From the NCBI RefSeq assembly GCF_055900595.2, contig NZ_CM148325.1: DNA of 64,000 nucleotides, one strand, 5' to 3'. Position numbers and translations under genes: made by a program. The notes beneath the pieces were generated by a model. That model did not search any database. It was given only the letters and a program-made list of their open reading frames with translations, and was not told the origin of the DNA. This document shows positions 32,676 through 34,252 of this stretch, piece by piece. Position 1 is the first letter of the stretch. Each line of letters begins with the position of its first letter.

Positions 32676-33589
32676 GATGAGAGATCTCCGTTGATTTGGA
32701 TTGACTTCACATCATTAATCACCGCGGTAAAACTTTACGGCATCATGTCATTAAGCAATGCTACAACTCTCTGATTAAGAGTGATTGAAACGGAACAAAC
32801 CATCCCGGAACGAAAAGATAATCCTGCACACAGCAGCAAAACACGCAACAACAGCATGAATGGATTTAAAAACGACATGGACGACGAGAAAAGCCTGAAG
32901 GGAAAAGGATCCACAGAACATTCGAACAAAACACCAGAAACGCAACCAGAACGCTTCCTGGCAATGCAAATCAACAACAACGCCAAAACCTACAGCTTAA
33001 TCACACAACTCAATCACGAATGCGAATGACACGTTTAAAACCTGTTTACAGATAACGCCGTAACACGATCATCCCCATCACCATCAGAATCGATTTTCTC
33101 ATCCCGAAAATGTTACGTTTCACTACGCACCATAAAAACGGTTAACCATCGATAACGTAAACCTTATCTGAATCAAAAACACCAAAACCGTTCATCACAC
33201 TTTCGCAATGCAAGAAGAAACCTCATGACAAAAAGAATGACCTTACACGGAAAAGAAAACGTCAGGAATCGTTAATGCCTCAATCTGATTGTTATCAAAA
33301 CATCCAGAAAGTCGTTTAACAGAATCGTCGTAAGCACATCGAAAAGAACGTCAGATCACCTCAGGAAAGTTCGGGTTGATTTAGCGTAAAGATACTTTTC
33401 TCAGCTTAACGTCGAAACACAAACCAAAAACCACAAACAACCAAAGCTCAGGAAAGGTTAAACGTCACATCAGTAAAATCGAATAGCAGATTGATTGCTT
33501 AAACAGGAAGGATTGTTTTACAGCAGCATTAAACTGATTTAGTTAACGTAAAATCAGAACTGACAGGTTTACTAACTTGGATGTGTATC

Positions 33590-33745
33590 AGTTCAAAAAT
33601 GTGTACAGCAATGCGTAATGAAACACATTTAAAGGAGATTAATGGGAAAGTGTGTAAATGCGTAAACAGGCACTAATGAATCACTGGAGGAATACATACA
33701 AAACGACTTAATGAAAACATAAAAGGACCTAATGGAAAAGGTGTA
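33590..33745. repeat. Cluster of five TAATG(R)(R)A direct repeats plus two ~22-bp imperfect repeats (iteron-like) inside a 1.5-kb ORF-free region
   Basis: TAATG at 33616, 33640, 33674, 33709, 33730; tgtgtacagcaatgcgtaatgaaacac vs tgtgtaaatgcgtaaacaggcac. Confidence 0.6.
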
Positions 33746-34252
33746 TATAATACCATATCCGACATTCTCAACATCTTAAGACATCCATGCAGACTGAATG
33801 TTGGTTTCAGTTTTTCACGGTAAGCATGAATCTTTTCTGTTCAAAAGCAGAGCAGATTTACTCTGGAATTATTTTTCTTACTCCGTATTCTGTACAGCAA
33901 AAACTTGTGCTAACTTTACAGCAAACCATCATAATCAGCGTCTGTAGTCCCATCGCTTTACCCCATGAAAGTGAATCCATATGATGTGAGAGAGATAAGT
34001 CATCGTATCCGGTAAACACTGCTTACTATAACATAAGATCATTCAGTCAGTTTTATCTCTGAACTGACGATTATGGCATGCTCATTTATATGGCTCACAG
34101 AGGAGTGTTATTATCCGTAAGCTTTAATCATCAAATCACATGACCATACCAAACTGGCGCTATATCAGCTCATTTGACGCTCATTCCCTTTAGATTTCTT
34201 TATGTGTTTTTTGTTGATAATTAAAATGTAATATAAATTTAATATTTTCAAA

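What the first reader, a model, noticed from the sequence alone, without database searches (positions are those of the whole stretch)
32760..34250. About 1.5 kb with no ORF of 60 aa or more, strong strand compositional skew and iteron-like repeats
Between the last YfjJ-like gene and the orphan ORF the six-frame track shows only one low-complexity 82-aa ORF and one 65-aa ORF. The plus strand is conspicuously A/C-rich and G-poor across ~32760-33500. At 33590-33745 there are five TAATG(R)(R)A direct repeats at 21-35 bp spacing, two ~22-bp imperfect repeats, and three AACGTCA motifs near 33260-33470. This is more like an iteron/origin, a structured non-coding RNA or a regulatory array than decayed coding sequence. 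The adjacent genes are of the inovirus Gp2-like (replication-associated) family.
Basis: seen in the sequence. Interest (0 to 1): 0.55.

Follow-up and report, generated by a model that had tools for sequence, protein, structure and literature searches.

The report
Island control region beside nickase gene
This gene-free 1.5 kb is a shared backbone segment of genomic islands found in about a third of E. coli genomes; it is mostly spacer DNA, but it ends in a repeat array and two short sequence boxes that are conserved across genera and sit next to a DNA-nicking (HUH) enzyme gene, so it most likely controls that gene and may be the site where the enzyme acts.

Summary
Window 32676-34252 has no conserved ORF, the strongest A+C strand bias in the 64 kb, and five TAATG repeats. 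It is not coding: there is no codon periodicity and the indels break every frame. It is not a structured RNA: Rfam finds nothing, covariation is absent, and it folds worse than shuffled sequence.

It is a backbone segment of CP4-6/CP4-57-like islands, present in 1491-1870 of 5426 complete E. coli genomes. It always lies between a 243-aa YagK/YfjJ-family gene and a variable cargo slot upstream of a GTPase-DUF932-antirestriction-RadC operon.

The TAATG array is this island's divergent version of a repeat array whose copy number varies between islands (AYGTGTAT plus TTAGTAAAA units).

Beside the array lie two boxes, L (33744-33765) and R (33860-33872). Both recur upstream of homologues that are only 30-50% identical, in Providencia, Brenneria and K-12 yagK. 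In K-12, box L coincides with a published site bound by RNA polymerase in vitro.

Best reading: a promoter/operator region for the HUH gene that is probably also the enzyme's DNA target, plus about 0.8 kb of spacer with no detectable constraint. Origin function is unproven.

The parts
31944..32675 (-). 243-aa YagK/YfjJ ('inovirus Gp2') family gene encoding an HUH-type endonuclease-like protein. Motifs: RVDL, H101-Y-H103, Y213-L-x-K216.
32676..32760 (.). Proximal upstream segment of the HUH gene, almost invariant among islands.
   Evidence: Mean pairwise difference is 0.00-0.06 for 32676-32735 and rises to 0.14-0.28 at the 32736-32760 edge (block mean 0.047), against 0.086 at 4-fold sites of the gene itself. 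It is shared by both island classes: query positions 1-187.
32761..33440 (+). A/C-rich, G-poor non-coding spacer. It includes the unconserved 82-aa ORF at 32781-33029. In other islands, 32862-33162 is replaced by about 1150 nt carrying a 176-aa ORF.
   Evidence: Composition. No codon periodicity and frame-breaking indels. Divergence of 0.145-0.185 exceeds the synonymous divergence of the neighbouring gene. No conserved structure on either strand. The alternative class with the 176-aa ORF leaves no remnant here. Present over at least 80% of its length in 1315 of 5426 genomes.
33441..33580 (.). Conserved non-coding blocks, including AAAGGTTAAACGT..CAGTAAAATCGAATAGCAGATTGATTGCTTAAACAGG and TTTACTAACTTGG.
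   Evidence: Mean pairwise difference is 0.10-0.21. Shared by both island classes. K-12's yagK leader keeps ACTGGTATCAGA at the equivalent place.
33581..33751 (+). Repeat array. GTGTA-type boxes lie at 33581-33587, 33599-33605, 33650-33656 and 33741-33747. TAATG(R)(R)A boxes lie at 33616, 33640, 33674, 33709 and 33730. This is the window's divergent version of the AYGTGTAT + TTAGTAAAA(T) array of related islands.
   Evidence: Across 36 sequence-distinct array segments printed from the related loci there are 3-7 GTGTA-type boxes, the array spans 88-222 nt, and one locus (L062) carries a 34-nt tandem duplication. All boxes are in one orientation. The last box is fused to box L.
33744..33765 (.). 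Box L, TATATAATACCATATCCGACAT. This AT-rich symmetric element reads as a leftward promoter, TTGAGA (33771-33766) - 16 nt - TATATA (33749-33744), and as a rightward -10, TATAAT (33746-33751).
   Evidence: Conserved in all E. coli variants. Also present upstream of homologues only 30-50% identical, in Providencia, Brenneria, L141, L142 and K-12 yagK. In K-12 it equals the published TTTAGA-16-TATAAT site in the RNA polymerase SELEX peak of the yagK-yagL spacer (PMC3946193).
33766..33859 (.). Spacer between the two boxes. Conserved within E. coli, not between genera.
   Evidence: Start-to-start distance from box L to the TCTGGA core of box R is 115-116 nt in this subfamily and 86-96 nt in distant islands. 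RNAalifold gives -4.5 kcal/mol with one compensatory pair.
33860..33872 (.). Box R, ACTCTGGAATTAT. It is the last conserved element before the variable cargo side.
   Evidence: Kept in nearly all E. coli variants (the L004/L014 type has TCTTGAATTAT). Reads ACTCTGGAGTTAT in Providencia, AGTCTGGAGTTAT in Brenneria, ACTCTGGAATTAT in L141 and L142, and TTCTGGAATTAA in K-12. Box L followed by box R at 70-130 nt arises in at most 0.7% of shuffles per locus.
33873..35501 (.). Variable cargo slot. Here it holds the 3' flank and the 407-aa low-GC orphan ORF (34253-35476, minus strand).
   Evidence: Different genes occupy this slot in L003-L014. The 407-aa protein has no significant Pfam, PADLOC or PHROG hit; the only NCBIfam match scores far below the curated cutoff (TIGR04078, E 0.0058, 16 bits against 300).
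35502..35576 (+). Conserved box TTTTCACGTCCATATTACCTGA and hairpin CCGGATTAATGTGATCCGG upstream of the GTPase gene. This is the right border of the cargo slot.
   Evidence: Conserved in nine E. coli loci whatever the cargo. A homologous TTTCACCTCTATATAAC box lies about 40 nt after box R in Providencia, which has no cargo.

Best explanation
The stretch is the expanded central intergenic control region of a CP4-6/CP4-57-type genomic-island backbone.

**Ancestral layout.** In compact relatives (Providencia, K-12 CP4-6) a 270-450-nt spacer separates a YagK/YfjJ-family HUH-nuclease gene from the neighbouring module. In Providencia that neighbour is the divergently transcribed GTPase-DUF932-antirestriction operon, and the Brenneria and L142 loci place a DUF932/RadC module on that side. 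In K-12 CP4-6 the neighbour is yagL.

**What changed in E. coli.** In this E. coli lineage the spacer grew at two places:
- A cargo slot opened to the right of box R. Here it holds the 407-aa ORF.
- About 0.8 kb of A/C-rich sequence lies between the functional core and the HUH gene. Other islands carry a 176-aa gene there instead.

**The functional core is 33581-33872.** It contains three elements:
1. A one-orientation array of direct repeats. The TAATG repeats are this island's version.
2. Box L, fused to the array. It is an AT-rich, nearly symmetric sigma-70 promoter element that most likely drives the HUH gene leftwards through a leader of about 1.07 kb. It may also fire rightwards.
3. Box R, about 115 nt away.

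**Inferred mechanism.** The HUH protein needs a specific DNA site, and these are the only non-coding sequences that travel with its gene across genera. I therefore infer that the array and boxes are also where this protein binds and possibly nicks. That would both autoregulate its promoter and start rolling-circle replication or mobilisation of the excised island, as at pMV158 or geminivirus origins.

**Status of each step.**
- Shown: the region is non-coding; the boxes are conserved and linked to the gene; the neighbouring protein has an HUH fold and motifs; RNA polymerase binds the homologous K-12 spacer in vitro (from the literature).
- Inferred: the direction and activity of the promoter here; protein binding to the array; any nicking or origin activity.
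- The skewed 0.8 kb is best regarded as spacer.
For: **Distribution and context.**
- Always the same context in 10 annotated E. coli loci and about 45 metagenome loci.
- Present in 1491-1870 of 5426 genomes, with up to 8 copies per genome.

**The boxes.**
- The box L + box R module is found, in the same order and orientation relative to the gene, in 5 of 8 loci whose protein is only 30-50% identical.
- The intervening sequence is unrelated in those loci, and the module arises in at most 0.7% of shuffles.
- The module stays with the HUH gene even when the other flank is alpA rather than the GTPase operon (L141).
- K-12 box L coincides with the predicted promoter TTTAGA-16-TATAAT inside RpoD, RpoH and RpoE holoenzyme SELEX peaks (PMC3946193, PMC5493296).
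- The -35-like TTG and the AT-rich -10 are kept in E. coli (TTGAGA), Providencia (TTGAAT) and L142 (TTGAAA).

**The protein.**
- HUH motifs and fold.
- The structural hits are origin-binding nickase domains, several of which (per their PDB titles) were solved with origin or repeat DNA; that these Reps recognise direct repeats (AAV Rep, pMV158 RepB DDR) is from my own knowledge of those systems.

**The array.**
- It is made of direct repeats in a single orientation, with copy-number variation.

**The cargo slot.**
- Its borders are homologous to one continuous Providencia spacer.
Against: - No transcript, binding or nicking data exist for this sequence.
- The leftward -10 in this window (TATATA or TATACA) lacks the conserved T at -7. 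The rightward TATAAT has no -35.
- The published K-12 promoter string is a computational assignment inside a SELEX peak.
- Array type does not co-vary with the HUH protein. The same TAATG array sits beside proteins 89-100% identical, and no residue is diagnostic.
- No conserved hairpin presents either box as a nick site.
- Outside the first 60-85 nt, the non-coding blocks are more diverged (0.12-0.22) than 4-fold sites of the adjacent gene (0.086). Substitution rates therefore give no sign of purifying selection.
- The module is missing upstream of K-12 yfjJ and of two other homologues.
- The box patterns were refined after seeing some of the distant loci.
Confidence: 0.45

Rival explanations
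1. A purely transcriptional control region. Box L is a bidirectional promoter. The repeats and box R are operators for an island regulator (an AlpA-type or other HTH protein) or for H-NS. The HUH protein acts elsewhere or is inactive. There is no replication or mobilisation role.
For: - RNA polymerase and H-NS bind the homologous K-12 spacer (PMC3946193).
- Box L is symmetric and AT-rich.
- alpA sits next to the HUH gene in Providencia, Brenneria, L141 and L142.
- The array does not co-vary with the HUH protein.
- There is no nick-site hairpin.
Against: - The module follows the HUH gene rather than alpA or the GTPase operon when these are rearranged.
- The catalytic His and Tyr residues are invariant across 35%-identity homologues, which argues for an active nuclease that needs a DNA site.
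Confidence: 0.28
2. Mostly functionless spacer. The 1.2 kb is hitch-hiking, slowly decaying DNA kept only because the islands are young and recombine. Only the promoter-proximal 85 nt matter.
For: - Divergence of the non-coding blocks exceeds that of neighbouring synonymous sites.
- One segment is freely replaced by another of unrelated sequence, and L006 lacks about 250 nt.
- No structure and no coding signal.
- The strand skew is absent from Brenneria and L142.
Against: - Boxes L and R survive between genera while everything around them has changed.
- Conservation is strongly heterogeneous.
- The length is retained in more than 1300 genomes, in up to 8 copies each, despite the deletion bias of bacterial genomes.
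Confidence: 0.12
3. A non-coding RNA gene: either a transcript of about 115 nt from box L to the hairpin and T-run at box R (33758-33878, plus strand), or a long unstructured A/C-rich RNA, possibly a partner of the island's ProQ/FinO-like protein.
For: - TATAAT at 33746-33751, and a terminator-like CAGAG..CTCTG + TTATTTTT at 33848-33878.
- Conservation stops just after the T-run.
- A FinO-like ORF is in the window at 29641-29943.
Against: - No Rfam family matches.
- Consensus fold is -4.5 kcal/mol with one compensatory pair.
- The 5-bp stem is not kept in L008- and L014-type variants, and no terminator follows box R in other genera.
- SCI is below 0.6 and the plus-strand consensus energy is about 0 in the A/C-rich part.
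Confidence: 0.08
4. A recombination site. Box R, alone or with box L and the arm-like repeats, is the crossover or binding site of a site-specific recombinase that loads cargo into the adjacent slot.
For: - The variable cargo begins within a few tens of nt of box R and ends at a second conserved box upstream of the GTPase gene.
- In K-12, box R abuts the resolvase-like yagL gene.
- Direct-repeat arrays resemble arm-type sites.
Against: - Sequences just right of box R fall into diverged but related classes rather than sharing one sharp junction.
- No recombinase gene is linked in the E. coli loci.
- The module exists unchanged in Providencia, which has no cargo.
Confidence: 0.05

Closest known systems
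yagK-yagL intergenic spacer of cryptic prophage CP4-6, E. coli K-12
   Same: It is a homologous compact version. It has a YagK/YfjJ-family gene, then ACTGGTATCAGA, then box L (TATATAATACCTATCCAAC) 178 nt upstream of the start codon, then box R (TTCTGGAATTAA) 86 nt further on. It is listed as a site bound by RNA polymerase holoenzyme and H-NS, with a predicted promoter that equals box L (PMC3946193).
   Different: The K-12 spacer is only 271 nt. It has no A/C-rich kilobase, no TAATG/GTGTAT multi-copy array and no cargo slot. Its protein is only about 30% identical by tblastn (35% in the alignment). No function has been assigned to it either.
Double-strand origin of rolling-circle plasmids such as pMV158 (RepB, with its distal direct repeats about 84 bp from the nick; these origin details are from my own knowledge)
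   Different: No hairpin presents a nick site, and repeats and protein do not co-vary. The distance to the gene is about 1 kb. The element is a chromosomal island, not a plasmid. Nicking and replication are untested.
Geminivirus common region (iterons between the TATA box and the Rep start site, plus a nonanucleotide hairpin; from my own knowledge)
   Same: Direct repeats lie immediately on the Rep-gene side of a TATA-like box inside a divergent promoter region. The Rep has a single YxxK tyrosine motif like the one here. Box L contains TAATAC / TAGTATC / ATATTAC strings that recall NANTATTAC.
   Different: The resemblance of the strings is weak and AT-driven. There is no stem-loop. The hosts and the scale are unrelated. 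This is a lead only.
Intergenic region upstream of gene II in Ff filamentous phages
   Same: A non-coding region of several hundred nt lies directly upstream of a 'Gp2'-type initiator gene, and the gene's sense strand is T-rich.
   Different: The Ff region is built of strong hairpins (packaging signal and both origins). This region folds worse than shuffled sequence. There is no sequence similarity, and no phage in the collection carries it.
Origins of phage satellites that carry int-alpA-primase(DUF3987), such as PICMI, PICI and P4
   Same: The islands share the integrase / AlpA / DUF3987 gene set used to define PICMIs (PMC10803314). Those elements replicate from their own origin after excision.
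   Different: Satellite origins sit by the primase/helicase gene and are iteron blocks flanking an AT-rich stretch. Here the candidate site is tied to an extra HUH gene. The DUF3987 gene of this window is fragmented.

Membership tests
Rolling-circle double-strand origin / HUH-nuclease target site | A cognate HUH initiator with HUH and catalytic Tyr motifs is encoded next to it | tested here: met
Rolling-circle double-strand origin / HUH-nuclease target site | Initiator-binding repeats (iterons) lie near the nick locus and are matched to the initiator's specificity | tested here: inconclusive
   A one-orientation direct-repeat array exists in all variants, with 3-7 boxes. The array type shows no co-variation with the protein, and there are no diagnostic residues.
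Rolling-circle double-strand origin / HUH-nuclease target site | A nick sequence conserved among related replicons, usually exposed in a hairpin loop | tested here: inconclusive
   Boxes L and R are conserved across genera. No hairpin is conserved around either.
Rolling-circle double-strand origin / HUH-nuclease target site | Site-specific nicking and initiator-dependent replication | not testable with these tools
   This needs biochemistry or genetics.
Sigma-70 promoter / operator region | -35 and -10 hexamers at 16-18 nt spacing, kept in relatives | tested here: inconclusive
   K-12 has TTTAGA-16-TATAAT. This window has TTGAGA-16-TATATA leftwards, lacking T at -7, and TATAAT rightwards without a -35. 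The generic scan did not list it.
Sigma-70 promoter / operator region | RNA polymerase binding and a mapped transcription start | not testable with these tools
   Only in-vitro SELEX peaks for the homologous K-12 spacer are available (PMC3946193, PMC5493296). No start-site data were found.
Structured non-coding RNA (any Rfam family or a new one) | A match to a covariance model, or a conserved secondary structure with covariation | tested here: not met
   Rfam gathering and E-value searches give only chance hits. Alifold gives -4.5 kcal/mol with 1 compensatory pair. SCI is below 0.6. z-scores are +1.65, +1.07 and +0.14.
Protein-coding gene or recent pseudogene | An ORF or frame conserved in relatives, with a three-base periodicity of substitutions | tested here: not met
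   Variable columns fall 35/37/35. Indels of 1, 2, 4, 5, 11, 13, 19 and 20 nt dominate. The longest ORFs differ between variants. There is no similarity to the 176-aa gene found in its place elsewhere.
Theta-type iteron origin with DnaA boxes | A cluster of DnaA boxes (TTATNCACA) with an AT-rich unwinding element and a RepA-type initiator | tested here: inconclusive
   The GTGTAT boxes resemble the reverse DnaA box. There are 0-6 hits with at most 1 mismatch per array, all on one strand, against 0.4-1.0 in shuffles. This window has only 2 against 0.48, and perfect boxes occur only in five loci. No RepA-type gene is nearby.

The most novel reading that the evidence does not exclude
The YagK/YfjJ 'Gp2-like' proteins are active HUH nickases, and the box L - box R module with its repeat array is their origin (oriV or oriT). 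On this reading the CP4-6/CP4-57-type islands carried by a third of E. coli are rolling-circle replicons or relaxase-independent mobilisable elements, not inert 'cryptic prophages'. The defence/cargo slot would sit right at the origin, where it would be replicated or transferred first.
Probability: 0.22. Interest if true: 0.65.

Novelty: new member of a known kind. Interest (0 to 1): 0.42.

Why it matters
CP4-6/CP4-57-like islands carry virulence, toxin-antitoxin and anti-phage genes and are present in a large share of E. coli genomes. How they replicate or move after excision is not known, and the YagK/YfjJ proteins have no assigned function.

This analysis gives a short, testable target: two boxes of 13-22 nt plus a repeat array, genetically linked to an HUH nuclease across genera. 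It also defines the two borders of a cargo slot (box R and the box upstream of the GTPase gene). In K-12 CP4-57 the equivalent position, between yfjJ and the GTPase gene yfjP, holds known defence systems, although yfjJ itself lacks the box module.

If the boxes turn out to be only a promoter, the result is an ordinary piece of annotation. If they are a nick site, it changes how these islands are classified.

Tried and rejected
1. **Small RNA from 33750 to 33878.** There is a promoter-like TATAAT and a hairpin with a T-run, but no conserved structure, the stem is not maintained, and there is no terminator in other genera.
2. **Rfam STnc550 hit at 33459-33540.** It scores 19 bits against a gathering threshold of 48. 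It is absent from six related loci, so it is chance.
3. **Decayed copy of the 176-aa gene found at this place in 17 other loci.** tblastn finds no trace of it.
4. **The 82-aa ORF that RefSeq annotates as 'hypothetical protein'.** It is frameshifted in L010 and L012-L014 and shows no periodicity.
5. **TAATG as stop-start overlaps of a chain of mini-ORFs.** The motif itself is not kept in related islands, which have TTAGT instead.
6. **Skew as protection of a long leftward leader from Rho (C-poor RNA).** Providencia fits (6% C), but Brenneria, L142 and K-12 do not, and YC dinucleotides are not depleted here.
7. **Skew as an ongoing strand-biased mutation process.** Per-site rates are G>A 0.40 against C>T 0.32, and T>C 0.24 against A>G 0.15. 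The direction is right, but the effect is weak and the polarisation of changes is crude.
8. **Iteron specificity matched to the HUH protein.** No co-variation was found.
9. **DnaA-box cluster.** Only a weak enrichment.
10. **Single-stranded-DNA promoter or hairpin (Frpo-like).** The DNA fold has z = +0.14.
11. **Homologues in phages or plasmids.** None in phages. Four E. coli plasmid records carry what look like captured island pieces. The single 'phage' protein hit is an unverified 4.5-kb contig.
12. **Genome-contig scan with the protein.** It returned only two loci.
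Full report
**What is there**

The window is an E. coli genomic island. It is 99% identical over this stretch to strain PK8275. The gene order around the finding is:
- a fragmented YfjI/DUF3987 gene;
- a 243-aa 'inovirus Gp2 family' gene (31944-32675, minus strand);
- the gene-free stretch 32676-34252;
- a 407-aa low-GC orphan ORF (34253-35476, minus strand);
- a GTPase gene (35577-36461), followed by DUF932, antirestriction, RadC, DUF987 and YeeU/CbtA genes.

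- The plus strand of 32760-33500 is A 40, C 24, G 16, T 19 %. The 700-nt window at 32751 has the highest A+C fraction in the 64 kb, 4.2 sd above the mean.
- Five TAATG lie at 33616-33730, all on one strand. Local shuffles give 0.52 copies, and none of 5000 reaches five.
- Three AACGTCA are present but are neither enriched nor conserved.

**It is a backbone segment, not a local oddity**

- Megablast finds parts of it in 1491 of 5426 complete E. coli genomes. More sensitive searches find the right-hand 340 nt in 1861 genomes and the A/C-rich part in 1869, with up to 8 copies per genome.
- In every annotated locus I fetched, the context is the same: the Gp2-family gene, then 1.2-1.8 kb without genes, then variable cargo, then the GTPase gene.
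- An exact-pattern scan of metagenomes added about 45 more homologous loci.
- The conserved block runs from 32676 to about 33880. To its right, the sequences fall into classes that go with the cargo.
- K-12 lacks the block. It is absent from phage records and present in only four E. coli plasmid records.

**Not coding, not a structured RNA**

Evidence against coding, from 28 distinct variants:
- Variable columns inside the 82-aa ORF fall 35/37/35 on the three codon positions.
- Indels of 1, 2, 4, 5, 11, 13, 19 and 20 nt dominate.
- The longest ORFs differ from variant to variant.
- In 17 loci, window positions 32862-33162 are replaced by about 1150 nt carrying a 176-aa ORF with no significant family match. 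The window holds no remnant of it.

Evidence against a structured RNA:
- Rfam gives nothing real for this window or for six related loci.
- A tempting small-RNA candidate runs from TATAAT at 33746 to a hairpin and T-run at 33848-33878. It has a consensus energy of only -4.5 kcal/mol and one compensatory pair among 16 variants.
- A sliding RNAalifold scan of both strands never exceeds SCI 0.6. It gives about 0 kcal/mol for the plus strand of the A/C-rich part.
- Single sequences fold worse than their shuffles.

**How constrained is it?**

- Mean pairwise divergence among islands is 0.086 at 4-fold sites of the neighbouring gene.
- It is 0.047 in the first 85 non-coding nt, but 0.12-0.22 in the rest.
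- Substitution rates therefore give no sign of purifying selection on most of the block.
- Conservation is nevertheless very uneven, and the length is retained in more than 1300 genomes.
- The TAATG array region is the least conserved part.

**The array**

Related islands carry, at the same place, 3-7 boxes of the form AYGTGTAT. These are interleaved with TTAGTAAAA(T) / TTAATGAAAA boxes, and all boxes are in one orientation.
- The array spans 88-222 nt. One locus has a clean 34-nt tandem duplication.
- The last box is always fused to a TATA(A/G)TA element.
- The window's TAATG(R)(R)A and (G)GTGTA boxes are a divergent version of this array.
- The boxes resemble reversed DnaA boxes, but only weakly.
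- Array type does not co-vary with the neighbouring protein. The TAATG array is found beside proteins 100, 94.7 and 89.3% identical to the window's, and no residue is diagnostic.

**The neighbouring protein is an HUH nuclease**

- Pfam gives YagK_YfjJ_C (3e-36) and REP_ORF2-G2P (4.9e-9). PHROGs gives replication-initiation families.
- The sequence has RVDL, HYH (101-103) and YLVK (213-216). H101, H103, Y213 and K216 are invariant in 19 homologues down to 35% identity, including K-12 YfjJ and YagK.
- The 243-aa subfamily is essentially confined to E. coli and carries a low-complexity insertion of about 40 residues.

**The decisive comparison: distant islands**

I fetched loci for homologues that are 30-50% identical.
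- In Providencia, the HUH gene (followed by alpA) and the GTPase-...-antirestriction-DUF932 operon diverge from a single 449-nt spacer.
- Brenneria and L142 place a DUF932/RadC module (no GTPase gene was called there) opposite the HUH gene, across 745 and 1110 nt.

Read away from the HUH gene, these spacers contain two elements that are also in the window:
- **Box L**: window 33744-33765, TATATAATACCATATCCGACAT; Providencia TATATATTACTATATCCGACAT; L142 TATATATTACCAATCCAAC.
- **Box R**: window 33860-33872, ACTCTGGAATTAT; Providencia ACTCTGGAGTTAT; Brenneria AGTCTGGAGTTAT.

Their arrangement is consistent:
- They are in the same order and orientation. The start-to-start distance from box L to the TCTGGA core of box R is 86-96 nt in the distant loci and 115-116 nt in the E. 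coli subfamily. The sequence between them is unrelated.
- The K-12 yagK-yagL spacer has both boxes.
- The module is present in 5 of 8 distant loci and arises in at most 0.7% of dinucleotide shuffles per locus. The patterns were refined after seeing some of these loci.
- In L141 the far flank is alpA rather than the GTPase operon, and the module still sits upstream of the HUH gene. The module therefore goes with the HUH gene.
- (A/T)TGTGT-type direct repeats lie next to box L in Providencia and L141 as well, with inverted orientation in Providencia.

**Promoter evidence**

- Shimada et al. (PMC3946193) list an RpoD-holoenzyme SELEX site, also marked H-NS, in the yagK-yagL spacer. Its predicted promoter is TTTAGA-16-TATAAT.
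- That string is L135 38126-38153 on the minus strand, which is box L read towards yagK.
- RpoH and RpoE holoenzyme peaks fall in the same spacer (PMC5493296).
- The window's equivalent is TTGAGA (33771-33766) - 16 nt - TATATA (33749-33744). This is weaker, because it lacks T at -7.
- On the other strand there is a perfect TATAAT (33746-33751) without a -35.
- The element is nearly symmetric, so transcription in both directions is possible.
- If the leftward promoter is used, the HUH mRNA has a leader of about 1.07 kb that starts in the array.

**The cargo slot**

- About 75 nt upstream of the GTPase start are conserved whatever the cargo: TTTTCACGTCCATATTACCTGA plus the hairpin CCGGAT..ATCCGG.
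- A homologous box lies 40 nt after box R in Providencia, which has no cargo.
- The E. coli cargo therefore sits inside the ancestral spacer.
- In K-12 CP4-57, the equivalent position between yfjJ and the GTPase gene yfjP (though yfjJ lacks the box module) holds AbpAB and RnlAB.

**Interpretation**

- The functional core is 33581-33872: the array, box L, the spacer and box R.
- The best-supported function is promoter/operator control of the HUH gene.
- An HUH nuclease needs a specific DNA site, and these are the only non-coding elements that stay with its gene across genera. I therefore infer that they are also its binding and possibly nicking site. This matches the layout of direct repeats plus a conserved locus about 100 bp away that is known from pMV158 and, in outline, from geminiviruses.
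- That step is inference. There is no hairpin, no co-variation and no experiment.
- The A/C-rich 0.8 kb behaves as spacer. Its skew is shared with Providencia (G 7%) but not with Brenneria or L142.
- Neither a Rho-avoidance explanation nor a mutation-bias explanation for the skew held up.

**Verdict**

The feature is real and widespread, and it is not annotated or described in the papers I could search. It is a new member of a familiar kind: a control or origin-type region of a mobile element. It has moderate interest and offers a sharply defined experiment.

Noticed in passing
window 34253-35476 (-): A 407-aa ORF at 31-35% GC fills the cargo slot. It has no significant Pfam, PADLOC or PHROG match, and its only NCBIfam match scores far below cutoff. 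A homologue occupies the same slot in L054. K-12 CP4-57 has defence systems (AbpAB, RnlAB) at the equivalent position, so this is a candidate unknown defence or cargo gene.
   Followed up: partly
window 29961-31677 (-): The YfjI/DUF3987 (primase-helicase-like) gene is intact (1605 nt) in PK8275. In this window it is broken into several ORFs (264, 96 and 98 aa and others), so it is probably a pseudogene.
   Followed up: no
L054 5314-5844 and 16 other loci (L004, L024, L027, L040 and others): In an alternative island class, window 32862-33162 is replaced by about 1150 nt encoding a conserved 176-aa protein on the strand pointing away from the HUH gene. It has no significant family match; the best is NikA-like at E 0.025.
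   Followed up: partly
window 35502-35576: A conserved box (TTTTCACGTCCATATTACCTGA) and a 6-bp hairpin (CCGGATTAATGTGATCCGG) lie upstream of the GTPase gene. They mark the right border of the cargo slot and are probably the GTPase operon's own promoter and leader. K-12 ykfA and yfjP have listed promoters at the equivalent place.
   Followed up: partly
window 31944-32675 and homologues: The HUH gene evolves under weak constraint within E. coli: divergence is 0.050 at codon positions 1+2 against 0.086 at 4-fold sites. It is mosaic relative to the adjacent non-coding DNA. For example, L001 is 99% identical in the non-coding block but only 89% in the protein.
   Followed up: partly
window 13577-13693 and 25398-25514: Two ALIL frameshift pseudoknots (Rfam RF01497) mark two IS3-family insertion sequences in the island.
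   Followed up: no
window 28371-29050 and 29641-29943: There are IS1-like remnants, and a ProQ/FinO-like ORF fragment on the plus strand. The left part of the island is arranged differently from PK8275.
   Followed up: no
L135 17581-17655 (K-12 CP4-6): In K-12 CP4-6, the region between perR (which adjoins the GTPase gene ykfA) and the IS-disrupted left part holds the small RNA EyeA next to ykfC, a reverse-transcriptase-domain gene. This may be a cargo-slot occupant of another kind.
   Followed up: no
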